A stretch of 64,000 nt of DNA from Patescibacteria group bacterium. Lineage in GTDB: Bacteria > Patescibacteriota > Patescibacteriia > Veblenbacterales > UBA10138. Positions 8,612 through 43,560 of the stretch are shown one piece after another; position 1 is the stretch's first letter; each line of letters starts with the position of its first letter. The translations under genes were made by a program, and so were the position numbers. The notes beneath the pieces were generated by a model that did no database searches, was not told where the DNA came from, and was given only the letters and a program-made list of their open reading frames with translations. The DNA lies in contig JBAZQK010000006.1 in the NCBI GenBank assembly GCA_041645215.1, forward strand, positions 12,116 through 76,115, given 5' to 3'.

Positions 8612-9001
8612 ATGGCTCGTATTGCCAGTGTAAATTTGCCCGGTAAAAAGCGTATTGAAATAGCTTTGTGCTATCTCTATGGGGTTGGCTTGCCCTTGGC
8701 TAAGAAAATTTTGCAACAAACCAAAATTGACCCCAATATCAGAACAGTTGATTTAACCGATGAGCAGGTTAATCGTTTGCGCGAATATATTGAAAAGTCA
8801 TTCAAAGTCGAGGGTGATTTACGGCGTGAAGTAATGATGAATATCAAACGGTTGCGGGAAATAGGCAGTTATCGCGGGTCTCGTCACGCCAAACGTTTGC
8901 CGGCCCGGGGTCAGCGCACCAAAACTAATTCGCGCTCTATCCGCGGCAATGTGCGCCGAACTATGGGCAGTGGTCGCAAAGCAACCGCTCAAAAAACTTA
9001 A
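8612..9001 (+). CDS. rpsM: 30S ribosomal protein S13
   Basis: [26 protein letters not shown]...VEGDLRREV...[20 protein letters not shown]. Confidence 0.9.
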
Positions 9002-10114: not shown

Positions 10115-10927
10115 ATGGAAAAATTACCACTGCCTCAAAAAATTGTTACGGCGGCGAGCGATAATAATCACGCTAAGATAGTTATTGGTCCGTGTTACCC
10201 CGGTTATGGTACGACTTTGGGTAATTCTTTGCGTCGGGTTTTACTGTCGTCTTTGCCCGGGGCGGCGGTGGTAGCCGTTCGCATTACCGGGGCTGACCAT
10301 GAATTTTCCACGCTAGCGGGAGTCAAAGATGATGTGGTTGATATTTTATTAAATATTAAGCAGTTGCGCTTGCGAGTGTTTAGTCAGGAACTTGTTAGTT
10401 TTAATCTTAAGGTGGCCGGGGAAAAAGTTGTTACCGCGGCTGACATTACACCTAACAGCGCGGTTGAAATTTTAAATAAGGATTTGGTTATAGCCAACCT
10501 GACGGACAAGAAGGCAGTTTTAGAAATTGAATTTTTTGCCGAGCAGGGCCGGGGTTATGTGCCAGTTGAAAATCAGGAAGATGTCAAACACAATATTGGT
10601 GAAATTGCGATTGATGCTTTTTATACGCCGGTTCGGAGGGTTGGTTATTCGGTTGAAAACGTTCGGGTTGGCCAAATGACCAATTACGATAAATTGACAT
10701 TGGACGTGGAAACTGACGGCAGTTTAACTCCGTTGGAGGCGGTACAGCAGGCTAGCCGTATTTTAATTGATCATTTTGCTTTTATCGCCGGCGACAAAAC
10801 AGTTGATATAGCGGAGTCAGCTGCGGTTGACACTGTGCCGCTAGCACCGGCGCCAATTGAAGTTAATAAATTGAGCGTACCGGAAAGGGTGGTTAAAAAG
10901 CGCGGGCGTCCCAGAAAGGAAGTTTAA
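10115..10927 (+). CDS. rpoA: DNA-directed RNA polymerase alpha subunit (N-terminal domain only; C-terminus is an AT-hook-like KKRGRPRKEV)
   Basis: MEKLPLPQKIV...GPCYPGYGTTLGNSLRRVLLSSLPGAAV matches the alpha-NTD. Only ~40 aa follow the NTD, and no HhH alpha-CTD is recognisable. Start taken at M15 of the tracked ORF. Confidence 0.8.
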   Translation: MEKLPLPQKIVTAASDNNHAKIVIGPCYPGYGTTLGNSLRRVLLSSLPGAAVVAVRITGADHEFSTLAGVKDDVVDILLNIKQLRLRVFSQELVSFNLKVAGEKVVTAADITPNSAVEILNKDLVIANLTDKKAVLEIEFFAEQGRGYVPVENQEDVKHNIGEIAIDAFYTPVRRVGYSVENVRVGQMTNYDKLTLDVETDGSLTPLEAVQQASRILIDHFAFIAGDKTVDIAESAAVDTVPLAPAPIEVNKLSVPERVVKKRGRPRKEV

Positions 10928-10930
10928 ATT

Positions 10931-11509
10931 ATGCCCGGTAATACAACTTTGCTAGCGCTCACTTCAACCACCTTTTATTATAAAATTATGTTTTGTTTAG
11001 AATTATTTAATCAATTACCTTTGTTTAACCACGCTCGCGCTTAAGGCGGTTGAGCAAAGTTGATATACCGGGTATGCCCAGTAATACAACTTGGCTAGCG
11101 CTCGCCCAGCACCAGAGCCCCGAAGGAGAACAAGTTCCCTACGGGGCAGGCAAGCACGGTACTGGGCATCGCTCCAACGGTATATTTCCCGTCGGGCAGC
11201 GAGCGGCCAACAATCCCAATCTTTTGACTATTCTTGGTGCTTGGGCTCGCCTTAACCACTCCGTATCATAACTTTATGTCTTATCTAAAATTATTTAATC
11301 ATTTATTCTTGTCTAGCCACGCTCGCGCTGGGGGTGGTTTAGCCAAGTTGATATACTGGGTATGCCCAGTAACAAAACTTCACTATACTCGCAAAGGCAC
11401 TTAAGATTAATCCCCATTTATAAAACTATGATTTTAGTTTCAGCTAATTTAATTTCTCTTTCACTCGGCTCGTATAAAGTGCCTAGTGAAGTTATTGTTA
11501 CTGGGTATG
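10931..11509 (+). repeat. Second tandem array of family-1 ~140-bp hairpin repeats (three units, one with insertion, one variant)
   Basis: Unit A is 10931-11076. Unit B is 11077-11364, with a ~135-bp GC-rich insertion at 11107-11240. Variant unit C is 11365-11509 (cccagtaacaaaacttcact...agtgaagttattgttactgggtatg). The array begins directly after the rpoA stop and ends in the rplQ ATG. Confidence 0.8.
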
Positions 11510-11857
11510 AGACATCGTAAAGTTGGCAGAAAATTGGATCGCACCGCCGCCCCTCGTCTGGCCCTTATCAAAGGCTTGGCTAATAGTTTGGTTTTGTACG
11601 AAAGTATCAAAACCACTGTCGCCAAGGCCAAAACAGTCAGGTCGTACGTTGAGAAATTAGTTACAATTGCCAAGAAACCAACTTTGGCTAATCGCCGCCT
11701 AATTACCAGTCGCCTGACAACCGCTGGCGCGGTTAGGAAGTTATTGGAAGTTTATGGACCCCGTTATAATGAGCGCCCCGGCGGATATACCAGAATAGTT
11801 AAATTGGCGCGCCGCCAGGGTGACCGCGCCCGCATGGCGCAAATCGCCTTTATCTAG
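11507..11857 (+). CDS. rplQ: 50S ribosomal protein L17
   Basis: MRHRKVGRKLDRTAAPRLAL... is the L17 N-terminus. The ATG is supplied by the repeat terminus ...ttactgggtATG; the tracked ORF 11486 start lies within the repeat. Confidence 0.85.
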   Translation: MRHRKVGRKLDRTAAPRLALIKGLANSLVLYESIKTTVAKAKTVRSYVEKLVTIAKKPTLANRRLITSRLTTAGAVRKLLEVYGPRYNERPGGYTRIVKLARRQGDRARMAQIAFI

Positions 11858-31185: not shown

Positions 31186-32607
31186 ATGACAAAATGGCAT
31201 TGGTATATGCGTGGCACTATTTATCCGCATCGGGCCGATATTGGACAATTGGGTATTTTTAAGTATGGAAAATATAATTTAATTCCCATAACATCAGATT
31301 TGTATATTAACGAAGGTTCTAGAATGTGGTGGGCGTGGGATGTAGCTCAAATCACAAAACTAGGTAATGCTATTTTAAAACAGTGTAAGACTAAATCTGG
31401 CGTTGCCAAACATGTAAATAAGCTAATTGCCTTATTGAGCAAGGCCATAGAGTCAGCCGATATATTTAAACAGGGAGATTTAACGAAATTAAGTGATAAA
31501 GAATTAGCCGGACAGTATCAATTACTTTACAAAGATAATTTGGAAACCCACGGCATTTTAAATGAAGATGTAGATGCGTTTGATGTGGTGTTTGATAATT
31601 TTTTGCAAACAGAATTAAGACGCTATGTTAATTTAGCTGGGGATAAATTTATTTCCGTCTATAAAGATTTGTCAACACCTTGCCATACTTCATATTTGCA
31701 ACAGCAAAACTATGATACAGCTAAGCTATATTTAAACTCAAAAGGTCAAAGCGAAACGGTTGATATTTTACATAATGAATATTGGTGGACAAGCATGGGT
31801 TGGGAAAGTATGAAGCCGCACAGTAAAGGTTATTTTATGCATCAGGTAAAAACAATGAACCGAGTTTTGGCAACAAGGATTATTAATGATTATAAAAAAC
31901 AAGCCGCTTTAGTTGCCAAACAGCGCCGGAGACTGCTTCGCCAATATAAGTTACCCAGGCAATTTAGTCGCTGGCTATGGGTTTTGGATAAGTATGCCTA
32001 TTTACATGACTGCAGAAAAGAAATGCAGGTTAAAACCATGTATGCTTATCATTTGATTTTATTAGAGACTGCTAAAAGGTTAAAGATTAAAGAATCGGAT
32101 TTGGAGTGGTTATTTCATAATGAGGTCGCGGGTTTATTAAAAGGTAAGAGACTTAATAAAAAACTGATAGCTGATAGAAAAATATCAGTGACCTCCCAGG
32201 TAACATCTAAAAAAATAATTATAAATGAAGGGAATAAAGCTCATCGGATAAAGATTAAAAGTCTTAATTTAGATAGAAAAAATATTACTTTAGTTAAGGG
32301 TTTGGCTGTAACTGCTGGTTTAGTACATGGACGTGCCTTGGTTTGTCAAGGGGCCAAAGAGGCCATTAGCAAAGTTAAACAAGGTGATATTTTGATATGC
32401 CCCATGACCTTACCGGATTATTTGCCAGCCATGAAAATGGCTAAAGCCATCGTGACAGATGAAGGTGGTTTAACCTGCCATGCTGCCATAATCGCGCGTG
32501 AGCTGGGTAAGGTTTGTATAGTTGGCACAAAAGAGGCCACCCGGGTATTTAAGACCGGCGATTTGGTAGAGGTTGATGCTAATAGAGGCGTTATTCGTAA
32601 GTTATAG
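31186..32607 (+). CDS. PEP-utilizing swivel-domain protein, paralog 2
   Basis: KAIVTDEGGLTCHAAIIARELGKVCIVGTKEATRVFKTGDLVEVDANRG. N-terminal domain homologous to paralog 1. Confidence 0.75.
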   Translation: MTKWHWYMRGTIYPHRADIGQLGIFKYGKYNLIPITSDLYINEGSRMWWAWDVAQITKLGNAILKQCKTKSGVAKHVNKLIALLSKAIESADIFKQGDLTKLSDKELAGQYQLLYKDNLETHGILNEDVDAFDVVFDNFLQTELRRYVNLAGDKFISVYKDLSTPCHTSYLQQQNYDTAKLYLNSKGQSETVDILHNEYWWTSMGWESMKPHSKGYFMHQVKTMNRVLATRIINDYKKQAALVAKQRRRLLRQYKLPRQFSRWLWVLDKYAYLHDCRKEMQVKTMYAYHLILLETAKRLKIKESDLEWLFHNEVAGLLKGKRLNKKLIADRKISVTSQVTSKKIIINEGNKAHRIKIKSLNLDRKNITLVKGLAVTAGLVHGRALVCQGAKEAISKVKQGDILICPMTLPDYLPAMKMAKAIVTDEGGLTCHAAIIARELGKVCIVGTKEATRVFKTGDLVEVDANRGVIRKL

Positions 32608-32610
32608 TTT

Positions 32611-33255
32611 ATGGAGAATAAAACTTTTTATCTTTGGGATTTGGCTGATACCATTTTTATTGAAAAATGGAACGCTGAATTATCCGGCGTGCCGTCTTTT
32701 AATGCTTATGTGGAGTCTTTGGGATATGATTTAAAAACTATCAGTCCTTTAGATTATGAATTATGTTATGAAAAACCGTATCGTGATGGTTTATATGATT
32801 TATCAATTGCTGATGGATTTAAAGAAGTTCTAACTTGGACGAAAAACAATGGCGTTTTTACTACTGGTAACAAAGAGCAAATTAATTGGCGAGCTGAACA
32901 GTTGTTAAGAAAATATGGGTTTGGCATTCGTGACTTTTTGAAAGAGATATATAGCACTTTTGATTATAGTAACACCAATGTTAAAACCGAAGCTATGTTA
33001 GTAGATTTAATAGGTAAAAAATTTAAGCAAGGGCTTGGGATTATAGTTTATACAGACGATAGAGAGGCTAATTGCAGGTTTTTTATTAGTGCAGCTGAAA
33101 AGTGTCAAAATAATGGGGTGAGGGTTGAATATCGGGTGTATAATTTAGGTAATGATGATAGTAAGTTAGAAAAATTGTCAGATAACTATTATAAAATTGG
33201 CGATCTATATCAATTGAAAGATAATGAAGAAAATTTATTAAAGCCCAATGATTAA
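32611..33255 (+). CDS. HAD-like hydrolase (atypical motif I DxxD), putative phosphatase
   Basis: YLWDLADTIF (motif I-like), VFTTGN (motif II-like), IIVYTDDREAN (motif IV-like). Shares the atypical DxxD(T/V) with 39597..40205. Confidence 0.45.
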   Translation: MENKTFYLWDLADTIFIEKWNAELSGVPSFNAYVESLGYDLKTISPLDYELCYEKPYRDGLYDLSIADGFKEVLTWTKNNGVFTTGNKEQINWRAEQLLRKYGFGIRDFLKEIYSTFDYSNTNVKTEAMLVDLIGKKFKQGLGIIVYTDDREANCRFFISAAEKCQNNGVRVEYRVYNLGNDDSKLEKLSDNYYKIGDLYQLKDNEENLLKPND

Positions 33256-34690
33256 TCCTAATAAAAATTTGTGGCGGTGGGGACCAATAGACGGCCGGCC
33301 GATATATCCGGACCCGTGGTACGACGGTATGACTGTTAATATGAAGGCATTTTCACCGAGTTGGCCAAGTAGTTATTCTTTATATAAAAAAGACAGGTAT
33401 TCTTATGTTTGTGAATATGAGCCTTTATATAAAAACGCGGAGAAAATATTCGTTAAGTATATATTGAATGAAGCCAATTTTAAAAGAATATACAGAAAAT
33501 GGCGCAATATTGTAAAGAGGTTAGTCAACCTAAATGCTAAAATGTCCCCAAGTAGTCTCAGGTCGTTAAATGATTTAGAACTCTATAAAACAATCAATTT
33601 ATGGTATAAAGTTTATAGTTATGAATTTTGGGGTGTTGGGTTAGTACCGGAAATTGCTAATTTTGGCGGGGAATCATTGCTTAGAAATATACTTCGGAAA
33701 AAATCTGTCGTTATGGGGGCGGAGGTTAGTTTAATGGAAAAGTTGTCGGCGCCTGATAAATTTTCGTTTTATACGCAAGAAGAAATAGATCTATTAAAAC
33801 TTCGTAAGATAAAAGGAAAGCCATTAAATCAGTCTTTGGTTAAGCATCAGCAAAAATATTTTTGGATACTGAATAGTTATCGCCAGACTAAAGTTTTATC
33901 AGTGGACTATTTTGCTAAGTACTTAAAAAAGTTTTCTAATGTACATGCTAGAGACAGAATAAAGGCATTAAAAAAACAAATAAAAATAGTTAAATTTATT
34001 AAAGCAAAGTTAGTACGTCAATATTCACTAGGTAAGGACGCATTGATGATATCTAACAAATTAGCTTGTTGTATTTGGTGGCAGGACAACAGAAAATCGT
34101 ATATATTTCAAACTAATCATGTTATAGATGTAATAGTTAATGAATTATCTCGTCGCTATGATATTAGTAAAAGCGATTTACATTATTATGTTTTTAAAGA
34201 TATTTTAAAATTAATTAAAACTGGAAAAAAATTATCAATTAAAGAACTAAAACAAAGACAAAGTTATTTTGCTGTGGTTTGGGATAGGCAGAAAGGGACT
34301 ATGTATGTATCCGGAGGTAAAGCTAAAAAGTTATATAATTTGTATCAAATAAAACCGAATGTTAAGTCTATAAAGCAAATTAGGGGTGAGGCTGTTAGCG
34401 CTGGAGTTGTTAAGGGTAAGGTGAGAGTTATTTTGTCAGCCCGTGAGGTCAATAAATTACGACCTGGAGAAATATTAATAACCACTATGACTTCGCCCGA
34501 TTTTATTGTGGCTATGCGTAAAGCTGCGGCCGTAGTAACCGACGTTGGTGGTATTACCAGCCACGCCGCTATAGTCTCGCGTGAACTTAGAATACCCTGC
34601 ATAGTGGGTACCAGAATCGCCACTAAAGTTTTGAGAAATGCTGATTTGGTGGAAGTTGATGCCAATAAAGGAATCGTTAAAAAATTATAA
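33248..34690 (+). CDS. PEP-utilizing swivel-domain protein, paralog 3
   Basis: AAVVTDVGGITSHAAIVSRELRIPCIVGTRIATKVLRNADLVEVDANKG; QQKYFWILNSYRQ and CIWWQDNRK motifs. Confidence 0.75.
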   Translation: MINPNKNLWRWGPIDGRPIYPDPWYDGMTVNMKAFSPSWPSSYSLYKKDRYSYVCEYEPLYKNAEKIFVKYILNEANFKRIYRKWRNIVKRLVNLNAKMSPSSLRSLNDLELYKTINLWYKVYSYEFWGVGLVPEIANFGGESLLRNILRKKSVVMGAEVSLMEKLSAPDKFSFYTQEEIDLLKLRKIKGKPLNQSLVKHQQKYFWILNSYRQTKVLSVDYFAKYLKKFSNVHARDRIKALKKQIKIVKFIKAKLVRQYSLGKDALMISNKLACCIWWQDNRKSYIFQTNHVIDVIVNELSRRYDISKSDLHYYVFKDILKLIKTGKKLSIKELKQRQSYFAVVWDRQKGTMYVSGGKAKKLYNLYQIKPNVKSIKQIRGEAVSAGVVKGKVRVILSAREVNKLRPGEILITTMTSPDFIVAMRKAAAVVTDVGGITSHAAIVSRELRIPCIVGTRIATKVLRNADLVEVDANKGIVKKL

Positions 34691-34694
34691 TTAT

Positions 34695-34724
34695 CCGCTC
34701 CCATGCTCTAGAGCATGGGAGCGG
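34695..34724. promoter_or_regulatory. Perfect 30-bp palindrome CCGCTCCCATGCTCTAGAGCATGGGAGCGG (putative operator, copy 1)
   Basis: Perfect dyad with a central CTCTAGAG. It lies between the paralog-3 stop and the AGGAGG SD of the YerC-like gene. Confidence 0.55.
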
Positions 34725-34741
34725 AGGAGGAAATAAGAATT

Positions 34742-35053
34742 ATGCCACGATATAATGAAAAAAGAATACCATATCAGACTCAAGAAAAACTTCTTGATAT
34801 GTTTTGTGATATTCTTAAAAACATGAAAAAACGTCAGGACGTTAAAGATTTTTTAAAAGATTTATTAAATCGTCAAGAACGAGTAATGTTGGTACGCCGA
34901 TTACTGATAGCTGATATGTTACTTAGAAAGTTATCTTATCGTGAAATTACAAATAAATTACGGTGTGGCTCTTCAACTATAGCGCGAGTAGAGCGTTGGT
35001 TAAATTTTGGTCGAGGTGGTTACAAACTAGCTATTAATCATAAAGTAAAATAA
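34742..35053 (+). CDS. TrpR-like/YerC-YecD family DNA-binding protein
   Basis: ...REITNKLRCGSSTIARVERWLNFGRGGYKLAI matches the YerC/YecD (Trp repressor-like) HTH. AGGAGG lies 12 nt upstream of ATG 34742; the tracked ORF starts at 34715, inside the palindrome. Confidence 0.65.
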   Translation: MPRYNEKRIPYQTQEKLLDMFCDILKNMKKRQDVKDFLKDLLNRQERVMLVRRLLIADMLLRKLSYREITNKLRCGSSTIARVERWLNFGRGGYKLAINHKVK

Positions 35054-35057
35054 TTAG

Positions 35058-35085
35058 TGCTCCCATGCTCTAGAGCATGGGAGCA
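35058..35085. promoter_or_regulatory. Second copy of the palindrome (TGCTCCCATGCTCTAGAGCATGGGAGCA)
   Basis: 28-bp perfect dyad sharing the 24-bp core CTCCCATGCTCTAGAGCATGGGAG. It sits immediately upstream of paralog 4. Confidence 0.55.
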
Positions 35086-35094
35086 AAGGTCTGT

Positions 35095-36615
35095 ATGATA
35101 ATTAGTGAATTAACTAAAGAAATAAAGCGGGAAACTTGGTGGAGCGAAGAGTCACCAGGCACGCCCATGTTTTCTTTGTGGATACAGCAGTTCGTACGGC
35201 AATCTAAGTATTGGCATCCTAAATTGCCTAATATTATATTGGTATTTTTTAAAAATGATTTTTTATATGAAGAAACTCCGGAAAAGCAAAAACTGCAAAT
35301 CTGGAATTATGTTTTAGAACAGTATATTAAATATCCACAAATTCAACTGCGTCATTATAAGAAGTGGAAAGCCGTGTCTGAGAATTTAGTTAAAGAAAGG
35401 GAGTGGTTTCTAAAACACAAACATCATTTAAACAGCCAAGAATTGGCTGCGTCGTTTGCCAAAGTCAGCCAATTGATTAATGAGCACTGGCGGATTACTT
35501 GGGTGCAGGAAAGCGCTGATATTTTTACCACCTATGAGTTGCCGCAATTAATTCAAAAAGAAAATCCTAATTTATCGCTGGAACAGGCGACAGGTATTGC
35601 CATAATTTTATGCGCACCTGAATTTTTAAGTTTTATGGAAGAACAGCACACAGAACTTTTAAAAATAGCTATTTTGTACTATAGAAAAATTAAAAATGCT
35701 AAGAGGATTACTGGGGTTGATAAAAGGTTACGTGAAACCATAAATGGATTCTCCCAAAAGTATATTTGGTTATTGTCTAATTATAAAGAAGCTAGGCCTT
35801 TTGGTATTGGGCAAGTTTGGCAACAATTACGCTATGAATGCCAAAATAAAACTTTGTCTAAATTAAAAAAAGATTTAAAGAGTGTTAGAAGCAAAGTAGT
35901 TCGTTTAAAAAGACAAAAAAATAAATTATATCGGGATTTAAGTATTTCCCCCCGGCTAAGAAAAGCTTTTAATCTGCTTACTTTTTGGGCAACATGGATG
36001 GATGAGCGTAAACAAACAGCGCTTGTAGGTAATTGGTATTTGGAATTTTATGCCCGAGAAGTGGCTAAGTGTTTAGGTATTAATATTTGGAATATTAAAT
36101 ATTTTACTGCTGCTGAATTACATCAAGCTTTATCAAAAGGTAAGTTGCCAAATAAACTAGAATTAAAAAAGCGTCGTCGGTTTTGTGTGTTTGCGATTAC
36201 AAAACAAGGCAGCAAGATAGTGGAAAAGATTTATACCGGGGGAAACGCGACTAAATTGTGGTCATTAATATTTACTAAACCAACAAGCAGCCTAATAAAA
36301 GGACAAGTAGCTAGTGCGCCGATAAGTAAAATGAGTGGCAAGGTTCAGATAGTTTTAGACCCGCATCGCGATAAGTTTACCAACGGTCGCATATTGGTTA
36401 CCACTATGACCCGACCAGACTTTGTGCCTTTAATTCGGCGAGCTAGTGCTATAATTACTGATGAAGGCGGTATTACCTGCCACGCCGCCATTATTTCCCG
36501 CGAATTAGGTATTCCTTGTATAATTGGCACTAAAGTAGCTAGTAAGATTTTAAAGAATGGCAATAAAGTAGAATTGGATTTGGCATCAGGTGGGGTTAAA
36601 ATTTATAAAAAATAA
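35095..36615 (+). CDS. PEP-utilizing swivel-domain protein, paralog 4
   Basis: SAIITDEGGITCHAAIISRELGIPCIIGTKVASKILKNGNKVELDLASGG; FWATWMDERK motif. The start may be 35077 instead (inside the palindrome). Confidence 0.7.
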   Translation: MIISELTKEIKRETWWSEESPGTPMFSLWIQQFVRQSKYWHPKLPNIILVFFKNDFLYEETPEKQKLQIWNYVLEQYIKYPQIQLRHYKKWKAVSENLVKEREWFLKHKHHLNSQELAASFAKVSQLINEHWRITWVQESADIFTTYELPQLIQKENPNLSLEQATGIAIILCAPEFLSFMEEQHTELLKIAILYYRKIKNAKRITGVDKRLRETINGFSQKYIWLLSNYKEARPFGIGQVWQQLRYECQNKTLSKLKKDLKSVRSKVVRLKRQKNKLYRDLSISPRLRKAFNLLTFWATWMDERKQTALVGNWYLEFYAREVAKCLGINIWNIKYFTAAELHQALSKGKLPNKLELKKRRRFCVFAITKQGSKIVEKIYTGGNATKLWSLIFTKPTSSLIKGQVASAPISKMSGKVQIVLDPHRDKFTNGRILVTTMTRPDFVPLIRRASAIITDEGGITCHAAIISRELGIPCIIGTKVASKILKNGNKVELDLASGGVKIYKK

Positions 36616-36630
36616 GTTATATAGATAAAT

Positions 36631-38094
36631 ATGAAACTTTATTATATTCAAAGAAAATCCAGCATGTCTTCAATCTTATGGCTTTTGGGTTGTGGTTTAG
36701 GCATGACTCATTACCCAGTTAAGCAAGTTTATGCTGGGTATGATTTGGGTAACACTATTTGGCTGGGTCGTCGTGAGGAAGGGTTTCTGTGCGGCGATAA
36801 ATCTACTCATATTGATAAATTGGTTAGTTCATTTCAAAATTATGTTTTAAAGAATCCACGGCATGTATTTAATATAAAAAAAATATTTTTAAACAGGTCA
36901 CGTAAATTAGTTGGTTTAGTCAAACATTTAGCCAGTTTTGATTATACCGAGGCCAGCAACAGTCAATTGTATGATGATTATAAAAGAGTAGTGGATAGTT
37001 ATAAGGAAGTTTATACTTACGGTGAGCCGTTAGCCATTGCCTTGGGAAATTTTTCCGATAGGATAAAAAAACATTTTATACCCCAGGGCATGACCGATGC
37101 TGATTATGAAATTTTGCTCTTACCCCAGGAACTTTCTTTTGTGCAAAGAGAGAGGCTGGATTTATTGGAAATAGCTTGTCTGGTTAAAAATGGAAAAGTG
37201 GATAAAAAGATTAAACAATTATTACAAAGTCATGTGGCTAAGTATACTTGGTTGCCATATGATTATGGCGTTACCAGTTATAAAATTGACCATTTTATTA
37301 AAGAGCTGAAAAAACTGGTTAACAAGGGGCGGCGGCAAATTTTAGCAAATTATCGCCACCTTGCTAACTATTCTCGAAATTTACAAAAGCAGCAAAATAA
37401 CATAGCGGCTAAATATAAATTTAATAACAAGCAGCAAAGTTTAATTGAAATTGTTAGAACCACTTTTTATTTGGTTGATTATAAAAAAGAATTATTTACG
37501 CAACTTCATTGGTATTCAGAAAGATTATTTATAGAAGTAAGCCGCCGACTAAAAACGCCCCAGCATTTAGTAAGGTATATGTTGCCGTATGAAGTGAGTA
37601 TGTGTTTGCTAAAGGGAGTACCCGTAAAAAAACTGCAAATCCAATCGCGTTACAATAATTGTGTAATTACTATTAAAAAATCAGGAAGGGTGAACGTTAT
37701 TGATGGTAATAAAGCTAAATTGATAATTGATAACTTTATCAGTTCACATAAAAAGGGTGAAAAGCGGGATTATTTATCCGGGCGCGTTGGTAATTCAGGA
37801 AGCGCGCGTGGTTTGGTAAGAGTAATTATGGATGCCAGAAAAATAGATACTTTTAAACATGGGGAAATATTGGTAGCACCCATGACTTCACCCGATTATA
37901 TACTGGCCATACGCAAAGCGGCAGCGATAGTGACGGATGAAGGCGGTACAACCTGCCACGCCGCCATTGTCTCGCGAGAACTTAATATACCCTGCGTTAT
38001 TGCCACCAAGAAAGCCACCCAAGTCTTTAAGACTGGTGATATGGTGGAAGTAGATGCTACGCGTGGTATAGTAAGATTATTAAAATCATCTTAA
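36631..38094 (+). CDS. PEP-utilizing swivel-domain protein, paralog 5
   Basis: AAIVTDEGGTTCHAAIVSRELNIPCVIATKKATQVFKTGDMVEVDATRG. Confidence 0.75.
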   Translation: MKLYYIQRKSSMSSILWLLGCGLGMTHYPVKQVYAGYDLGNTIWLGRREEGFLCGDKSTHIDKLVSSFQNYVLKNPRHVFNIKKIFLNRSRKLVGLVKHLASFDYTEASNSQLYDDYKRVVDSYKEVYTYGEPLAIALGNFSDRIKKHFIPQGMTDADYEILLLPQELSFVQRERLDLLEIACLVKNGKVDKKIKQLLQSHVAKYTWLPYDYGVTSYKIDHFIKELKKLVNKGRRQILANYRHLANYSRNLQKQQNNIAAKYKFNNKQQSLIEIVRTTFYLVDYKKELFTQLHWYSERLFIEVSRRLKTPQHLVRYMLPYEVSMCLLKGVPVKKLQIQSRYNNCVITIKKSGRVNVIDGNKAKLIIDNFISSHKKGEKRDYLSGRVGNSGSARGLVRVIMDARKIDTFKHGEILVAPMTSPDYILAIRKAAAIVTDEGGTTCHAAIVSRELNIPCVIATKKATQVFKTGDMVEVDATRGIVRLLKSS

Positions 38095-38112
38095 TTATTA
38101 ATTGTTATTTAT

Positions 38113-39600
38113 ATGTCTGGAGCAGTCGCAAGATCAGGGCCTTGGCGGATTAAACCATCGGGTAAATTGCCAATTTTTTTACGTTTTATGATTAATTCCG
38201 GTTTTGACCATAAAATTTCTAATAAGGTTGGCTTTAAAAACCATATAGTTAATCGGGTGTATTTGAATCACATGATGTATTGGCCCGCTAAGGAATATAA
38301 TAAATTTGAAGCGGAAATCATTAACCATTTGAAGAAAAATGATGGCTGGATTGAAAAATATTGTGCTCGTGAACTAAAAAAATCAGAGCATCTTTATAAC
38401 TTGGGTTTACGTTTAAAAAAGGTTGATTGGTCCAGAAAAACTAACCAAGAAATGAGGATCATTCTCAATAGTATATTGGAAAAATATCGCGAGTTGGCCT
38501 GTCCATGGTATGCGCAATATTCTATTGATGTTTATTGCGAGGATGTTATTGAAGAAGAGTTACTAAAGTATATACCCGCTGGCCATCCGGATTTTAGAAA
38601 ACTGGTTTTGATATTTACTGACCCCAAGGCTATGACAGACGTAGCTGAGGAAAGGTGGAATTTAATGAAATTAGCAAAAAAGTTACAGAATAATAAGGAA
38701 AAGATGGATAAACTTTCTACGCAAGTTGTTAATCTTATAAATAAACATCTGGATAAATTTGCTTATATAAACAGAGGTTTAGCCACTAGTAAGCCATATA
38801 ATTTTAGAGATATGGTTAAGAGAATTAAAGAAGCCTGGGCGTCAAAAGAGACTTTAGACAGTTTAATTTATTATAGTTCACCCCAAAAAATAAAAAATGA
38901 TTACAAATGGGCTGTTAAACAAATAAACCCAAGTAAAAATTTTATTAAAATCATTAATCAGGCCAGATTGCACTCTTATACTAGAAATAGGCGCGTTGAA
39001 GCTTTCTTTTTGGCTGATTATGGCGCCAGCTTTATGTACCATGAAATAGCGAAAAGAAGCAAATTTAATCCTAATTGGATTATGGAAGTGTCGATTCCGG
39101 AGATGTATGGAGCTTTAAAGGGCGAACCATTGCCAAGTAAGGAAGAAATGAAAAAAAGATTTACTAATTACGCCATGATTGTAAAGAACGCCAAAACTAC
39201 CATGATAGTTGACCCCAAAAAAATAAAGCAATTGGAAAGAAAATATTATGTTAATGTTAAATCAGCTGATCAAGTGGTGGGGCGTATGGCATGTATTGGT
39301 GGAATTATTAAAGGCCGGGCCAAGGTTTGTTTGGACAAATCGGAGATTGGAAAGGTTAAACGTGGAGATATACTAGTAGCCCAATTTACTACACCCGATT
39401 TTGTACCGGCCATGGAAAAAGCGGCTGCTATAGTTGCTGACCAAGGCGGTTTATCTTCTCATGCCGCTATAGTATCAAGGGAACTGGGCGTACCTTGTGT
39501 AATTGCCACGGATAATGGTACTAGAGTGATAAAAGATAATGATTTGTTGGAGGTTGATGCCCGTAATGGCATTGTTAAGATAATCAAAAGAGCTAAATGA
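38113..39600 (+). CDS. PEP-utilizing swivel-domain protein, paralog 6
   Basis: AAIVADQGGLSSHAAIVSRELGVPCVIATDNGTRVIKDNDLLEVDARNG. Confidence 0.75.
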   Translation: MSGAVARSGPWRIKPSGKLPIFLRFMINSGFDHKISNKVGFKNHIVNRVYLNHMMYWPAKEYNKFEAEIINHLKKNDGWIEKYCARELKKSEHLYNLGLRLKKVDWSRKTNQEMRIILNSILEKYRELACPWYAQYSIDVYCEDVIEEELLKYIPAGHPDFRKLVLIFTDPKAMTDVAEERWNLMKLAKKLQNNKEKMDKLSTQVVNLINKHLDKFAYINRGLATSKPYNFRDMVKRIKEAWASKETLDSLIYYSSPQKIKNDYKWAVKQINPSKNFIKIINQARLHSYTRNRRVEAFFLADYGASFMYHEIAKRSKFNPNWIMEVSIPEMYGALKGEPLPSKEEMKKRFTNYAMIVKNAKTTMIVDPKKIKQLERKYYVNVKSADQVVGRMACIGGIIKGRAKVCLDKSEIGKVKRGDILVAQFTTPDFVPAMEKAAAIVADQGGLSSHAAIVSRELGVPCVIATDNGTRVIKDNDLLEVDARNGIVKIIKRAK

Positions 39601-40205
39601 TCAAAGCAATTTTCTTTGATTCCGGTGACGTTATAGTAAGGGAAGGATTCAATCCCGGTATAGTTGAATATGAAAAAAAATATAGTTTGCTGCCAGGATC
39701 TCTATACAAATCTGCACACGACAGGCAATATTGGAAAGATTTTACCTTGGGTAATATATCCGAAAATGAATACTTTGCGGATGTAGCAGACGATTACAAA
39801 AAAGCAAAAATTGATACCACAGATTTTAAAAAGATTATCCAGGATAATTTTAAATTAAATGAAGAATTGTTAGATTTTTTAATGACAATTAAAAATAAAT
39901 TTATTTTAGGAGTAATCTCTAATCATCCCAAGGAATTTTTTGAATGGTGCAGACAATATTTTGGTTGGGATAAGATTTTTACCGTTTATGCGGTATCTGG
40001 TGATTTGCATGTTAGAAAACCCGATAAGAGAATATTTGATTATGCTGTTAAAAAAGCTGGTGTGGCAGGTGGCGAATGTATCTATGTTGACAATCGCTCG
40101 GACAGAATAGAGGGTGCACAGTTAGCTGGTATGCAGGTAATTATTTATCAGAATATCAATCAATTAAAAACTGATCTATCTAATTTTATTAATGTAACCG
40201 ATTAA
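39597..40205 (+). CDS. HAD-superfamily hydrolase (putative phosphatase)
   Basis: IFFDSGDVIV (motif I region), LGVISN (II), VRKPDKRIFDYA (III), CIYVDNRSDRIEGAQLAGM (IV). ATGA overlap with paralog 6. Confidence 0.6.
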   Translation: MIKAIFFDSGDVIVREGFNPGIVEYEKKYSLLPGSLYKSAHDRQYWKDFTLGNISENEYFADVADDYKKAKIDTTDFKKIIQDNFKLNEELLDFLMTIKNKFILGVISNHPKEFFEWCRQYFGWDKIFTVYAVSGDLHVRKPDKRIFDYAVKKAGVAGGECIYVDNRSDRIEGAQLAGMQVIIYQNINQLKTDLSNFINVTD

Positions 40206-40208
40206 TTT

Positions 40209-41204
40209 ATGTTAAAAGAAAACAATTACGAAACTCATGAAAAGATGATGGCCACTACTTATATAGATTTAACCAGACATGGTAACCGATATGGCGGGCC
40301 GATGGAAATTACTTTTTACGACGGCAGCAAAATTAAATTTGATGATTCTACTGACCTTACCGAAGAAGGTCGAAAAGATGCTGTAAATTTTGGTGCCGAA
40401 GGAATTCCACCCGAAGTTACATTAGTACATTTACGTGGTGGTGACGAGCCAAGACACGGTCAAACTGGCGATGATATAGTAAAGGGAAGTGAAAAATTTG
40501 GAATACACAAAGAGGGGGAGGAGCCGTCGCCAGTTAGAGACAAGGCCGGTCGGGTAAAGGGAGCGAGACGAGGGCAAGGGGTTGATTATGCTAGTTCTGG
40601 TTTAATGCCATTTCTCAAACCATTTAAGCAAATGATAAATGATGAACTTAATAAGATAGTTTCTACTTTATCTCCAGAGGAGCAAGAGAAATTAAAAACC
40701 AATCCGGAACTTAGAGCCAAATATCGTGAGCAAGCACAAGTTTTCGGCCTTAAAGCTGCTATTAATGACCCAAAATTGGCTGAAATAGCTGCCGAGAATG
40801 AGGCTAATGAGTTGCTTCATGTTGTTGAGTTGTCGCGCAGGGGGGTGAAAGCTGGTGAAATTAAATCAATCCCTATAGTTGGTAGTGGTCTTTTTGCCGA
40901 ATCTTTGTTAAAACACGCTTTGGTGGTGGAGGATTTAGAAACCGCTAATAAAAAGACTGGATTTGAGTCGGTTGATGAAATTGGTGGATTTACTAAACAA
41001 GCCACTTCTTTTAGGATAAAACTTATGCGAGATGCGGAGTTGGGTGACGCGCGTAATATGGAAGATTTTAATAAAGATACCAAAGTTGAATACGAATTTA
41101 CTGACCCAGAAAGAAAGAAGTTGTTTGGCGGCAAAAAAGTATCTTTGGACTGGAATATTGTTAATGAATTGGCAAATAAGTTTAGGTTTAAGCGCCAAGG
41201 TTAA
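40209..41204 (+). CDS. Hypothetical protein; possible histidine-phosphatase-superfamily domain at N-terminus
   Basis: IDLTRHGNRYGGP...DLTEEGRKDAVNFG resembles the RHG...LTxxGxxxA signature of PGM/SixA-like phosphatases. The rest is uncharacterised. Confidence 0.3.
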   Translation: MLKENNYETHEKMMATTYIDLTRHGNRYGGPMEITFYDGSKIKFDDSTDLTEEGRKDAVNFGAEGIPPEVTLVHLRGGDEPRHGQTGDDIVKGSEKFGIHKEGEEPSPVRDKAGRVKGARRGQGVDYASSGLMPFLKPFKQMINDELNKIVSTLSPEEQEKLKTNPELRAKYREQAQVFGLKAAINDPKLAEIAAENEANELLHVVELSRRGVKAGEIKSIPIVGSGLFAESLLKHALVVEDLETANKKTGFESVDEIGGFTKQATSFRIKLMRDAELGDARNMEDFNKDTKVEYEFTDPERKKLFGGKKVSLDWNIVNELANKFRFKRQG

Positions 41205-41210
41205 CGAAAA

Positions 41211-42041
41211 ATGAATAATTTACCAAAATTAAAAATAGTGTCAATAACTAAATTGTGTTTACATGAAACTGTAGACCCAAAGCGTGTTTTGAAATTAAAA
41301 AAAATAATTAAAAAAGCTCACCTTTTTACCAATCCGCCAATTGTAAGTTATATACCAGCGATGGATAAATATTTAGTATTAGATGGTGCTAACCGTACTA
41401 CTACGCTTAAAGAATTGAATTTTAAATATATTTTAGTGCAATTAGTGGAATATAAAGACAGTGTTGTTGATTTATTAACTTGGAACCATTTTGTGTCCCA
41501 AATTAGTTTGCAAAGAGTTATTGATTTATTTAAAGGCTATAATAAAAAACTTAATATATTAAAGGTTAAATCTTCACAATCTGCTAAAAATTTGTTAGAC
41601 ACTAAACCAGGTGTAGTTTATATAACAGATGGCAAATTACATTATGTAATTAATAACTTTAAAGATTTTAAGGATGAAATTGCAATTTTGAATTTTGCAG
41701 TAAATATTTACAAAGGTAAACATAATTTTAATCGGATATTGGGTGATAATTATAAAATTTTAAAAAAGGAATACCCGAAAAATAAAGTACTGTTTGTATA
41801 TAAAAAACTACTTCAGCAAGATATTATAAAAGTGGTTAGAGCCGGACTCTATGTCCCGAGTGGTATATCGAGACATATAATTCAAGGTCGCGCTTTAAGA
41901 GTAGATATACCGATTGTTTGGCTAAAAGGTGCGGCCTCTTTGTTGTCATCTAATAAGAAGCTAAAAAAGTTAATTAACTCCCGACTTTCTTTGGGACAAA
42001 TTAGATATTACAGTGAGCCAACTTTTATTTTTAATGATTAG
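41211..42041 (+). CDS. ParB/Sulfiredoxin-like domain protein
   Basis: IVSITKLCLHETVDPKRVLKLKKII...PPIVSYIPAMDKYLVLDGANRTTTLKELN fits the ParB N-terminal/Srx fold pattern (hhDG.hR...L). Confidence 0.4.
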   Translation: MNNLPKLKIVSITKLCLHETVDPKRVLKLKKIIKKAHLFTNPPIVSYIPAMDKYLVLDGANRTTTLKELNFKYILVQLVEYKDSVVDLLTWNHFVSQISLQRVIDLFKGYNKKLNILKVKSSQSAKNLLDTKPGVVYITDGKLHYVINNFKDFKDEIAILNFAVNIYKGKHNFNRILGDNYKILKKEYPKNKVLFVYKKLLQQDIIKVVRAGLYVPSGISRHIIQGRALRVDIPIVWLKGAASLLSSNKKLKKLINSRLSLGQIRYYSEPTFIFND

Positions 42042-42046
42042 ATTTT

Positions 42047-43534
42047 ATGGCAAAAATTCCTAGTTGGCAATATTATTTTGCACGTAAATTTTCCTTACAG
42101 CGTTTTGAGATTATATCACGGGTTTTTTATTCGCCCTTTTATTTTAAGCATTTTAAAGTTAATTTAAAAAATATTTTGGTCAAACCAGGCCAAAGTCATA
42201 ATTATGAAATTTGGTTAGACAGAGATGAATATAAAATAGCCGTTAATAGAGTATATAAAACAGTCTGTAAGAATTATCATACCTATAAATATTATCGTAA
42301 AATTTTTATACAGACTCAACTTAGATTTCTTAAGGTGGCGATGATGGTGGCTCGCCAAACAAACAATAGATTAACTAATAAAGAATTGGGTAAATTATAT
42401 AGGTTGTTTACTCGCCACCTACAGAAGCTTAATAGTAAGCCAATTATAGTAGTGTTTATGATTGAACCGTTGGTTAGTTCAGCTGCGGTAATGATTTTGA
42501 CGGATATTCTCAAACGAAATAGTAAAATGAATGAGTATGATAATGGTCTTTCTATAATATTTTCACCTGATACTAAAACAGCCGTACCGCAGATGCGGCA
42601 GGCGTTGTTAAAAATTGCCTTAGGAGTTAAAACTGGTAGGTTAAATAAAACAAAGACAAGATATTTGCTTAATAGAGTCGTGAAGCAATATAATTTTTTG
42701 CCATGTTACGATATTATTGATAAGCCATGGGATTATGATTATTTTAAAAACGAGTTAAAGGGAATACTTAAAAGAACTGTAGTGGAATTAAAAAGCGAAT
42801 TAAAAGATATGAACATAGTGTGGCGTCAACGTAAAAATAATTTTAAAGCTTTTTTATCAAGATATGACATTAGCCAATCGGAAGAAGATATTTTAAGAAT
42901 TGCACACGATTTAGTTTTTATAAAAGACGAGAGAGATGATTATCGGCGTCGCGGTGGTTACTATGGTCGAAGACTTTTTGCCGAGATTGGCCAAAGATTA
43001 GACGTAGATTTACGCGCAGCTTGTTATTTAACTGTAGACGAAACAGAAGGTTTTTTATTTAGAGATATTAAACCATCTCGTGAGTTACTAAAAGAAAGGC
43101 AGACAACTTATTTATTATTACGTAAGTTAGGATCTCCTACTGCAGTAGCAAGTGGAGGTCAGATAAAAGCAATTATAAAAAATGAACATTTTCTATCATT
43201 AGATCAGTCTAAAGTTGATGAAATAACTGGTGTAGCAGGTTCTGTTGGTATGGCTAGAGGTTCAGTTATTATTGTTAATACTAAACATGATTTACGACGT
43301 GTCTTGCCTGGTTCAATTATGATAGCAGTTACTACCAGTCCGGATTATGTACCCGTTATGAGATTGTGTAAGGCGATTGTAACTAACGAAGGTGGAATAA
43401 CCTCTCACGCCGCCATAGTTTGTCGAGAATTAAGAATACCATGTATAGTTGGTACTAAAATAGCAACCAGAATATTCAAAGATGGCGATTTAGTAGAGGT
43501 TGACACCAAGAGGGGAATAGTGAGAAAATTGTAA
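42047..43534 (+). CDS. PEP-utilizing swivel-domain protein, paralog 7
   Basis: KAIVTNEGGITSHAAIVCRELRIPCIVGTKIATRIFKDGDLVEVDTKRG. Confidence 0.75.
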   Translation: MAKIPSWQYYFARKFSLQRFEIISRVFYSPFYFKHFKVNLKNILVKPGQSHNYEIWLDRDEYKIAVNRVYKTVCKNYHTYKYYRKIFIQTQLRFLKVAMMVARQTNNRLTNKELGKLYRLFTRHLQKLNSKPIIVVFMIEPLVSSAAVMILTDILKRNSKMNEYDNGLSIIFSPDTKTAVPQMRQALLKIALGVKTGRLNKTKTRYLLNRVVKQYNFLPCYDIIDKPWDYDYFKNELKGILKRTVVELKSELKDMNIVWRQRKNNFKAFLSRYDISQSEEDILRIAHDLVFIKDERDDYRRRGGYYGRRLFAEIGQRLDVDLRAACYLTVDETEGFLFRDIKPSRELLKERQTTYLLLRKLGSPTAVASGGQIKAIIKNEHFLSLDQSKVDEITGVAGSVGMARGSVIIVNTKHDLRRVLPGSIMIAVTTSPDYVPVMRLCKAIVTNEGGITSHAAIVCRELRIPCIVGTKIATRIFKDGDLVEVDTKRGIVRKL

Positions 43535-43560
43535 GACTACTGAATTTTTATATTTTTAAT

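What the first reader, a model, noticed from the sequence alone, without database searches (positions are those of the whole stretch)
10115..10930. RpoA lacks the alpha-CTD and ends in an AT-hook-like KKRGRPRKEV directly abutting a repeat
The alpha-NTD is complete (through …ASRILIDHFAFIAG). Only ~40 residues follow, with no HhH alpha-CTD signature, and the tail contains a GRP AT-hook core. The stop codon is immediately followed by the repeat array. Either the repeat insertion truncated rpoA, or this lineage naturally lacks the alpha-CTD (the UP-element/activator contact domain) and substitutes a minor-groove-binding AT-hook.
Basis: partly seen in the sequence, partly recalled or inferred. Interest (0 to 1): 0.55.

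Follow-up and report, generated by a model that had tools for sequence, protein, structure and literature searches.

The report
RNA polymerase alpha with AT-hook tail
In this candidate-phyla-radiation (Patescibacteria) bacterium and many relatives, the RNA polymerase alpha subunit naturally lacks its usual C-terminal DNA- and activator-binding domain and ends instead in a strictly conserved AT-hook, probably a minimal tether to AT-rich promoter DNA; the adjacent repeat did not truncate the gene.

Summary
rpoA (10115-10927, 270 aa) has a complete alpha-NTD, no alpha-CTD, and ends in KKRGRPRKEV. A repeat starts 3 nt after the stop codon.

Truncation is refuted. Syntenic relatives without any repeat have the same tail, and rplQ starts 3 nt after their rpoA stop.

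The short form is a lineage trait:
- 112 of the 120 nearest protein clusters lack the CTD.
- 80 of those end in RGRP, and 20 more carry a Lys/Arg-dense patch.
- RGRP is invariant in a 44-sequence alignment, while the linker before it is hypervariable and predicted disordered.
- Synonymous codon changes in the hook show selection on the peptide.
- No CTD is encoded in any frame of the window.

I found no published description.

My best reading is inferred, not shown. The hook, two per polymerase, binds the minor groove of AT-rich DNA upstream of -35 and replaces the UP-element contact of the alpha-CTD. WhiB7 and myxobacterial CarD are analogous RNAP-tethered AT-hooks. A CTD encoded elsewhere in the genome is not excluded.

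The repeat is a separate, striking thing. It is a tandem set of hairpin elements from a GIY-YIG-associated family. In 86 of 91 complete metagenomic copies the element ends exactly on an ATG, and in 74 that ATG opens a host ORF.

The parts
10115..10927 (+). rpoA coding sequence, 270 aa plus stop
   Evidence: ORF and translation. TIGR02027 rpoA scores 264.9 bits against a cutoff of 227.8, but only model positions 2-209 of 298 are matched. An identical protein, P0001, occurs on two metagenome contigs.
10115..10804 (+). alpha N-terminal domain (residues 1 to about 230): dimerisation and insert domains, the RNAP assembly platform
   Evidence: PF01193 and PF01000. Aligns with residues 12-226 of the alpha chain of PDB entry 6wvj and with other solved alpha subunits. 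AlphaFold pLDDT is mostly above 90 up to about residue 230.
10805..10894 (+). hypervariable, predicted disordered linker (residues about 231-260)
   Evidence: pLDDT is below 50 for residues 232-262. The alignment gives no consensus here. In hook-bearing homologues the linker has a median length of about 36 aa and is 27% Asp/Glu.
10895..10918 (+). AT-hook-type motif KKRGRPRK (K261-K268), followed by E269, V270 and the stop
   Evidence: R263, G264, R265, P266 and K268 are invariant, and K261 and K262 are at least 90% conserved, in 44 sequences of 51-77% identity. The codons differ synonymously among the window, L081, L082 and L001. Pfam AT_hook gives 13.1 bits, sub-threshold. The two-hook relative P0107 passes with 20.7 bits.
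10916..10922 (+). AAGGAAG, a Shine-Dalgarno-like sequence inside the rpoA 3' end. In repeat-free relatives the equivalent sequence lies about 9 nt before the rplQ ATG. Here it precedes the ATG of the first inserted element.
   Evidence: Sequence comparison of the window with the L081 and L082 junctions. The function is inferred.
10931..11073 (+). inserted hairpin element 1 (143 nt): 5' end ATGCCCGGTAATACAACTT, 3' end AAGTTGATATACCGGGTAT
   Evidence: It folds as a discrete long hairpin. It is absent from the syntenic L081 and L082.
11074..11361 (+). inserted element 2 (288 nt, with a GC-rich internal insert)
11362..11506 (+). inserted element 3 (145 nt, second subfamily: 5' ATGCCCAGTAACAAAACTT, 3' GAAGTTATTGTTACTGGGT)
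   Evidence: The same subfamily ends occur in L089, L097, L167 and L178.
11507..11857 (+). rplQ (ribosomal protein L17), intact; its ATG directly follows the last element
   Evidence: The translation MRHRKVGRKLDR... matches L081 and L082.

Best explanation
This rpoA is an intact gene for a naturally short alpha subunit that is typical of a large group of Patescibacteria. It has a full N-terminal assembly domain, then a disordered and usually acidic linker of about 30-40 residues, then a single C-terminal AT-hook (KKRGRPK/RK) in place of the alpha-CTD. [quoted passage not shown] This would give the polymerase a small, activator-independent equivalent of the alpha-CTD/UP-element contact. Sister lineages would achieve a less specific version with Lys-rich tails. 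Shown: the domain loss, the conservation of the hook, the disordered linker, and the independence from the repeat. Inferred: DNA binding, its location at promoters, and the functional replacement of the CTD.
For: Anatomy:
- Only the NTD domains are found; PF03118 is absent.
- Solved alpha subunits align only to residues about 10-230.
- NCBIfam rpoA models match only their N-terminal two thirds.
- AlphaFold gives a confident NTD and a tail with pLDDT below 50.

Not a truncation:
- L081 and L082 have the same operon, no repeats and the same tail, and rplQ starts 3 nt after the stop.

Lineage trait:
- 112 of the 120 nearest 90%-identity clusters lack the CTD. Of these, 80 carry RGRP 3-8 residues from the C-terminus, 20 have at least 6 K/R in a 12-residue window, and 12 have neither.
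- Among 150 representatives of 50%-identity clusters, 55 lack the CTD and 88 have it.
- The home-made CTD HMM finds the CTD in 69 of 84 control loci, including Saccharibacteria, Nealsonbacteria, Gribaldobacteria and Andersenbacteria. The negatives are therefore meaningful.

Selection on the hook:
- RGRP is invariant across 44 sequences while the linker has no consensus.
- The hook codons differ synonymously between genomes.
- One relative, P0107, has two hooks and passes Pfam's AT_hook threshold.

Precedent for RNAP-tethered AT-hooks that read AT-rich upstream DNA:
- WhiB7 contacts the sigma factor and promoter DNA through an AT-hook (PMC8786299; RGRP motif, PMC10727445).
- M. xanthus CarD combines an RNAP-beta-binding domain, an acidic region and four RGRP hooks that bind AT tracts at -63 and -77. 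It still works when the hooks are replaced by a histone-H1-like basic tail (PMC8156234). That parallels the hook and Lys-rich variants seen here.

Established knowledge: the alpha-CTD recognises UP elements, which are A/T tracts (PMC12641261).
Against: No experiment or promoter analysis links the hook to DNA or to promoters. A single hook scores below Pfam's AT_hook gathering threshold (10-13 bits against 17.4). Twelve of the 112 CTD-less relatives have neither a hook nor a basic patch, so a DNA tether is not indispensable. The acidic linker could mask the hook. AT-hook-like peptides can also bind RNA (from memory, not checked here). Only 64 kb of the genome could be searched for a separate CTD gene.
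Confidence: 0.55

Rival explanations
1. The repeat insertion cut off the 3' part of rpoA, so this is a truncated gene that lost its CTD recently.
For: The repeat begins 3 nt after the stop codon.
Against: Repeat-free syntenic relatives end in the same KKRGRPKKEV, with rplQ 3 nt downstream. Eighty clusters share the tail. No CTD remnant is found in any frame of the repeats or of the whole window; the best hit has E = 0.5. The insertion point lies exactly between the rpoA stop plus 3 nt and the rplQ ATG.
Confidence: 0.01
2. The alpha-CTD still exists but is encoded by a separate gene elsewhere in the genome (gene fission). The hook would then be an accessory.
For: Short proteins containing only PF03118 exist in the database (P0121-P0127). 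Only about 5-10% of a typical genome of this group is in the window.
Against: The stand-alone CTD ORFs I could place (L085, L086) lie directly after an NTD-only ORF and before rplQ. Their CTDs resemble those of the CTD-bearing group P0076/P0087/P0114, so they look like split or frameshifted ordinary rpoA genes, not partners of hook-type genes. In hook lineages rplQ follows rpoA by 3 nt. The window holds no CTD. A conserved C-terminal hook on a long linker is what one expects of a replacement, not of a fission product.
Confidence: 0.07
3. The basic tail is a non-specific nucleic-acid tether, for example for sliding or promoter search, nucleoid association, or contact with nascent RNA near the exit channel. 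It would not be a promoter UP-element reader.
For: Twenty related CTD-less alpha subunits have plain Lys-rich tails instead of RGRP. CarD tolerates replacement of its hooks by H1-like tails (PMC8156234).
Against: The strict invariance of R-G-R-P, rather than of charge alone, in 80 clusters argues for the specific minor-groove geometry of an AT-hook. The alpha-NTD C-terminus sits on the upstream-DNA side of the polymerase (established structural knowledge).
Confidence: 0.25
4. The tail is a protein-interaction or regulatory peptide, for example one that binds an acidic partner or folds back on the acidic linker. It would have no nucleic-acid role.
For: The acidic linker next to a basic end resembles auto-inhibited tails in HMG-type proteins (from memory).
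Against: No partner is known. The motif is the canonical DNA-binding core. Nothing tested here supports this reading.
Confidence: 0.08

Closest known systems
Canonical bacterial RNA polymerase alpha subunit (alpha-NTD, linker, alpha-CTD; UP-element recognition and class I activator contact)
   Same: The alpha-NTD is orthologous and the gene has the same operon position (S13-S11-S4-rpoA-L17). A flexible linker leads to a C-terminal module. The proposed minor-groove reading of A/T-rich DNA upstream of -35 is also the same.
   Different: The roughly 85-residue helix-hairpin-helix CTD (PF03118) is absent and an 8-residue AT-hook stands in its place. There is therefore no surface for activators, sigma region 4 or NusA. 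The linker is longer and acidic.
WhiB7 (actinobacterial Wbl factor with a C-terminal RGRP AT-hook, tethered to sigma-A region 4)
   Same: A single RGRP hook is held on the polymerase and contacts AT-rich promoter DNA (PMC8786299, PMC10727445).
   Different: WhiB7 is a separate, inducible Fe-S protein bound to sigma. Here the hook is built into a core subunit, is constitutive, and is present in two copies.
Myxococcus xanthus CarD (RNAP-beta-binding domain, acidic region, four AT-hooks; H1-like Lys-rich variants are functional)
   Same: The arrangement is an RNAP-bound module, then an acidic disordered region, then RGRP hooks. AT-hook and Lys-rich versions are interchangeable (PMC8156234). The same two tail types occur among these alpha subunits.
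   Different: CarD is an accessory factor with four hooks and is restricted to myxobacteria. Here there is one hook (rarely two) on alpha itself, and there is no homology outside the motif.
Archaeal Rpo3 (subunit D) and eukaryotic Rpb3/AC40
   Same: These are alpha-NTD homologues that lack any alpha-CTD. NCBIfam gives weak hits to subunit D models.
   Different: They belong to polymerases that use TBP/TFB-type factors. This protein is clearly of the bacterial rpoA type (TIGR02027 above its cutoff) and adds an AT-hook.
HMGA-type AT-hook motif (Pfam PF02178)
   Same: It has an R-G-R-P core flanked by Lys/Arg in a disordered context.
   Different: It is a single copy at the extreme C-terminus of a bacterial core enzyme subunit, and it scores below Pfam's threshold as a single hook.

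Membership tests
Bacterial RpoA (TIGR02027; PF01193 + PF01000 + PF03118) | alpha-NTD dimerisation and insert domains | tested here: met
   PF01000 106 bits and PF01193 88 bits. TIGR02027 264.9 bits against a cutoff of 227.8. Aligns with residues 12-226 of the alpha chain of PDB entry 6wvj. Confident AlphaFold model.
Bacterial RpoA (TIGR02027; PF01193 + PF01000 + PF03118) | conserved position between rpsD and rplQ in the ribosomal-protein operon | tested here: met
Bacterial RpoA (TIGR02027; PF01193 + PF01000 + PF03118) | C-terminal helix-hairpin-helix domain (alpha-CTD, PF03118) | tested here: not met
   No PF03118 hit. The TIGR02027 match stops at model position 209 of 298. The CTD HMM finds nothing in the protein or in any frame of the window, although it detects 69 of 84 control loci.
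AT-hook motif (HMGA type, PF02178) | R-G-R-P core flanked by Lys/Arg on both sides | tested here: met
   KK-RGRP-RK in the window. RGRP is invariant and the flanking K residues are at least 90% conserved in 44 sequences. The commonest forms are xKKRGRPKKE/D.
AT-hook motif (HMGA type, PF02178) | lies in an intrinsically disordered segment | tested here: met
   AlphaFold pLDDT is below 50 for residues 232-262 and about 55 at the hook, with no secondary structure. This is a prediction only.
AT-hook motif (HMGA type, PF02178) | reaches Pfam's gathering score | tested here: inconclusive
   The window protein scores 13.1 bits and relatives 10-13 bits, against 17.4. The two-hook relative P0107 scores 20.7 bits. 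A single 8-residue match did not reach the threshold in any one-hook protein scanned here.
AT-hook motif (HMGA type, PF02178) | binds the minor groove of AT-rich DNA | not testable with these tools
   Needs EMSA, footprinting or structural work.
Insertion-truncated gene or pseudogene | orthologues at uninterrupted loci are longer or end differently | tested here: not met
   L081 and L082 orthologues are 265 and 269 aa, end in KKRGRPKKEV, and have no repeat.
MITE-like non-autonomous element with a GIY-YIG-encoding relative (applies to the adjacent repeat) | terminal inverted repeats, an empty site in relatives, and longer copies that encode a nuclease | tested here: met
   Terminal inverted repeats and unit boundaries. 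Empty sites in L081 and L082. Copies of 315-321 nt whose 100-102-aa ORF scores 62 bits on PF01541 GIY-YIG. The target-site duplication (ATG or TATG) is not resolved and mobility has not been shown.

The most novel reading that the evidence does not exclude
A large part of the Patescibacteria runs its RNA polymerase without any alpha-CTD. In these lineages an 8-residue AT-hook, or a Lys-rich tail in sister groups, on an acidic tether is the whole upstream-promoter contact. Class I-type activation and the other CTD-dependent contacts do not exist there, and UP-like A/T tracts are read by a eukaryote-style minor-groove hook built into a core subunit.
Probability: 0.45. Interest if true: 0.75.

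Novelty: new variant of a known kind. Interest (0 to 1): 0.62.

Why it matters
The alpha-CTD is generally regarded (my own knowledge, not checked here) as a standard part of bacterial RNA polymerase. It reads UP elements and is the docking site for many activators.

A broad bacterial group that has replaced it with a single AT-hook would show three things:
- The CTD is dispensable in nature.
- There is a minimal solution for upstream promoter contact.
- Gene regulation in these reduced, host-dependent bacteria works without CTD-mediated activation.

It also gives an easily testable system: peptide-DNA binding, chimeric alpha subunits in E. coli, and promoter statistics.

It adds a core-enzyme example to the few known bacterial AT-hook proteins. 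It is also relevant to annotation, because these short rpoA genes are complete and are not fragments.

Tried and rejected
1. Truncation by the repeat. Rejected on the empty-site comparison.

2. CTD remnants in the repeat or elsewhere in the window. A six-frame search with an HMM built from 8 Patescibacteria CTDs found nothing; the best hit had E = 0.5 and lay on the opposite strand inside rpoA.

3. Stand-alone CTD genes. A profile search returned only 7 short proteins. The two I could place are pieces of split CTD-type rpoA genes, so this says nothing about hook lineages.

4. The genome-contig scan with the RpoA alignment used very general peptide patterns. It mostly returned ordinary bacteria, and only L001 and L002 were hook-type. 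It still served as a positive control for the CTD HMM. Whole genomes could not be fetched, so a genome-wide CTD search was impossible.

5. Rfam, at gathering and at E-value thresholds, found no RNA family in the repeats. The only hit was a spurious miRNA match of 25 bits against a gathering score of 100.

6. The neighbour-joining tree of NTDs places hook-bearing proteins in at least four groups. These are interleaved with hook-less groups and one CTD-bearing group. It has no support values, so I draw no conclusion on single versus multiple origin.

7. Promoter and UP-element statistics in the window were considered and not run. There are too few promoters, no mapped start sites, and no discriminating control.

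8. Literature searches combining alpha-CTD, RpoA, AT-hook and Patescibacteria/CPR found no description. The library lacks most subscription journals.

Full report
**What is there.** The window carries the usual operon segment: infA, rpmJ, rpsM, rpsK, rpsD, rpoA, rplQ, rplM, rpsI.

rpoA runs from ATG 10115 to TAA 10925-10927 and encodes 270 aa. Pfam finds only the two alpha-NTD families, PF01000 at 106 bits and PF01193 at 88 bits. There is no PF03118 (alpha-CTD). AT_hook gives a sub-threshold match of 13.1 bits at residues 261-268, against a gathering score of 17.4.

Solved alpha subunits align only with residues about 10-230. The best is PDB entry 6wvj, chain residues 12-226. NCBIfam's rpoA model TIGR02027 is passed (264.9 bits against 227.8), but only positions 2-209 of 298 are matched.

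AlphaFold, run with a 44-sequence alignment, gives a confident NTD with pLDDT mostly above 90. Residues 232-262 are structureless with pLDDT below 50, so no cryptic domain is hidden in the tail.

The last ten residues are KKRGRPRKEV. A repeat starts at 10931, 3 nt after the stop.

**Not a truncation.** Two relatives with 66-67% identical RpoA lie in the same gene order (L081 on a 164-kb contig, and L082). They have no repeats. Their rpoA ends ...KKRGRPKKEV, and the rplQ ATG follows the stop codon by 3 nt.

The junctions read as follows:
- Window: GAAGTTTAAATT|ATGCCCGG...(576 nt)...ACTGGGT|ATGAGACATCG
- L082: GAAGTATAATTTATGAGACATAG

The inserted DNA therefore sits exactly between the intergenic trinucleotide and the rplQ start codon. 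Both genes are intact.

A profile built from eight Patescibacteria CTDs finds nothing in any of the six frames of the 64-kb window, including the repeats; the best hit has E = 0.5. The same profile detects the CTD in 69 of 84 RpoA loci used as controls.

**A lineage trait.** The first 46 of the 120 best-matching 90%-identity clusters have these properties:
- 58-77% identity to the query over its full length;
- 259-273 aa long;
- no PF03118;
- a KKRGRPKK tail.

Source names include Kerfeldbacteria, Veblenbacteria and "Patescibacteria group".

Over all 120 clusters, 112 lack the CTD:
- 80 have RGRP 3-8 residues from the C-terminus;
- 20 have instead a patch of at least 6 Lys/Arg in 12 residues (for example Uhrbacteria, ...KKAKKAAKKKK);
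- 12 have neither.

Eight clusters have a normal CTD of 309-323 aa, for example Doudnabacteria.

A filter-free search of 1.84 billion cluster representatives gives a coarser picture among the best 150. Eighty-eight are CTD-bearing and 55 are CTD-less with lengths of 226-340 aa. Four of the CTD-less have RGRP and 24 have a basic patch. Some of the rest are visibly frameshifted products.

In a 44-sequence alignment (51-77% identity), R263, G264, R265, P266 and K268 are invariant, and K261 and K262 are at least 90% conserved. The roughly 35 columns before them have no consensus at all.

The hook codons differ synonymously between genomes: CGC/AGA, GGG/GGC/GGT, CGT/CGG and CCC/CCT. Selection therefore acts on the peptide.

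In hook-bearing homologues the linker has a median length of about 36 residues and is 27% Asp/Glu. One relative, P0107, has two hooks and passes Pfam's AT_hook threshold with 20.7 bits.

RGRP occurs nowhere else in the window's long open frames.

**Separate CTD gene?** A profile search with the CTD alone returned seven short PF03118-only proteins.

The two on long contigs lie directly behind an NTD-only ORF and in front of rplQ (L085: 213-aa NTD ORF, then an 85-nt gap, then a 92-aa CTD ORF; L086 is similar). Their CTDs resemble those of the CTD-bearing group P0076/P0087/P0114.

These look like split or frameshifted ordinary rpoA genes. They are not companions of hook-type genes.

I could not search whole genomes of hook lineages, so a distant CTD gene is not formally excluded. 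I give it about 7%.

**How it probably works (inference).** The alpha-NTD C-terminus lies on the upstream face of the polymerase (established structural knowledge). In ordinary bacteria the CTD on its linker binds the A/T-rich UP element (PMC12641261).

An AT-hook is the smallest known module that binds the minor groove of A/T tracts. WhiB7 has confirmed the HMGA-type binding mode in a bacterial protein (PMC11354804).

A linker of about 36 residues is long enough for each of the two alpha tails to reach DNA upstream of -35. I therefore propose that the hook is a minimal, constitutive UP-type contact.

Two bacterial precedents show that RNAP-tethered hooks do this:
- WhiB7 is bound to sigma and contacts promoter DNA through its hook (PMC8786299; PMC10727445).
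- CarD has an RNAP-beta-binding domain, an acidic region of about 50 residues and four RGRP hooks, which bind AT tracts at -63 and -77. It remains functional when the hooks are exchanged for a histone-H1-like basic tail (PMC8156234).

The same two tail types, hook and Lys-rich, occur among these CTD-less alpha subunits, also behind an acidic segment.

What is lost with the CTD is every protein contact it normally makes (activators, sigma region 4, NusA). That would fit organisms with few regulators, but I did not test this.

The main rival is that the tail is a non-specific DNA or RNA tether (about 25%). The 12 relatives with no basic patch show that the contact is not essential for polymerase function.

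**Known or new.** Full-text searches combining RpoA, alpha-CTD, AT-hook and CPR/Patescibacteria terms found no description. A review calls AT-hooks rare in bacteria (PMC8786299).

The library misses most subscription journals, so prior notice cannot be excluded.

I classify this as a new variant of a known kind: a bacterial alpha subunit with a different C-terminal DNA-contact module.

**The adjacent repeat.** The 576 nt between rpoA and rplQ are three head-to-tail elements: 10931-11073, 11074-11361 and 11362-11506. Each is bounded by imperfect terminal inverted repeats, ATGCCCAGTAATACAACTT...AAGTTGATATACTGGGTAT.

Each folds into its own long hairpin. The whole region has a z-score of -6.2 against shuffles.

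A second array of three intact elements (7922-8463), preceded by what looks like a degenerate fourth at about 7770-7921, ends exactly at the ATG of rpmJ (8464). In L081 and L082 infA and rpmJ are 4-5 nt apart.

Of 121 matches, 91 have the 3' inverted repeat within 700 nt.
- Lengths cluster at about 129-160 nt and at 315-321 nt.
- The long form is filled end to end by a 100-102-aa ORF, MPSNTTSSVFFYVYVLES...AFGSGS. It scores 62 bits on PF01541 GIY-YIG.
- Its ATG lies in the 5' repeat and its TGA lies in the 3' repeat.

In 86 of the 91, the last two bases of the element plus the next base form ATG. In 74 of them that ATG opens a host ORF of at least 45 codons. From their N-terminal sequences I read the host genes as rplT, rpsG, rplU, rpsB, rplO, rplA, rpsE, rpmF, rplQ, dnaB, mreB, nusG and ruvX. 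No family search was run on them.

This looks like a selfish element family that lives exactly on start codons. It appears to take over the host's translation start and hand a new ATG to the host gene 11 nt after its own stop. I found no description of it.

It explains why the repeat abuts rpoA, and it has nothing to do with the short alpha subunit.

**Verdict.** Truncation is refuted. The natural CTD-less, AT-hook-tailed alpha subunit is established with about 0.97 confidence. The promoter-DNA function of the hook is plausible but untested; the full mechanism has about 0.55 confidence.

Noticed in passing
window 10931-11506 and 7770-8463; loci L087-L206: The repeats belong to a widespread family of small elements with about 20-nt terminal inverted repeats. 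Short copies are about 129-160 nt. Copies of 315-321 nt are filled end to end by a 100-102-aa GIY-YIG ORF (PF01541, 62 bits). In 86 of 91 complete metagenomic copies the element ends exactly on an ATG, and in 74 of 91 that ATG opens a host ORF. By their N-terminal sequences the hosts include many ribosomal-protein genes, dnaB, mreB and nusG (my reading; no family search). I found no description in the searchable literature.
   Followed up: partly
window 10900-11530: Each of the three elements folds into its own long hairpin (MFE -201.5 kcal/mol, z = -6.2). The old Shine-Dalgarno sequence of rplQ (AAGGAAG, 10916-10922) is now separated from the rplQ AUG by three stacked hairpins. Essential rplQ and rpmJ must be translated either by hairpin-mediated SD-AUG juxtaposition or by termination-reinitiation; the last element's ORF (11362-11520) stops 11 nt after the rplQ ATG. 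No Rfam family matches.
   Followed up: partly
window 11362-11506 and 7770-7921; L089, L097, L167, L178 and others: There are two element subfamilies whose ends co-vary. Type A has 5' ...GTAATACAACTT with 3' AAGTTGATATACTGGGT. Type B has 5' ...GTAACAAAACTT with 3' AAGTT(A/G)TTGTTACTGGGT. This suggests that pairing or symmetric recognition of the two ends is under selection.
   Followed up: partly
L150 (about 1121, minus strand) and L127 (about 4309, minus strand): The element's 5' end alone (MPSNTTS...) is fused in frame to the start of ordinary long host ORFs of 532 aa and 230 aa. These may be solo ends left behind that now provide the gene's start codon.
   Followed up: no
L083 and L084 compared with window 7768-8612 and 10927-11507: Short-read metagenome contigs carrying the identical RpoA break 314 and 370 nt after rpoA, inside the repeat. 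L083 also has an infA-rpsM spacer of 558 nt against 843 nt in the window, a difference of about two 143-nt units. This is either assembly collapse or copy-number variation.
   Followed up: no
window 8464-8577; L081 about 2367-2480; L082 about 1258-1371: rpmJ (L36, 37 aa, [37 protein letters not shown]) is present but falls below the ORF-listing threshold. It was not called in the public contigs' gene lists.
   Followed up: yes
L085 9275-10279; L086 7349-8288: In two CTD-type Patescibacteria contigs rpoA is called as separate NTD and CTD ORFs in front of rplQ (213 aa plus 92 aa in L085). The cause could be a frameshift, a sequencing error or an alternative genetic code; this was not resolved.
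   Followed up: partly
P0107 (330 aa): This RpoA relative has two hooks, an internal EKKRGRGRPKKDE and a C-terminal KKKRGRPKKEE. It is the only one of those scanned that passes Pfam's AT_hook threshold.
   Followed up: no
P0128, P0132, P0158 (526-664 aa): These RpoA-like representatives have two matched stretches. They could be tandem alpha-NTD duplications or fusions with a neighbouring gene.
   Followed up: no
window 32001-44000: G+C drops to 0.34-0.36, against 0.41-0.47 elsewhere in the window. The content of this stretch was not examined.
   Followed up: no
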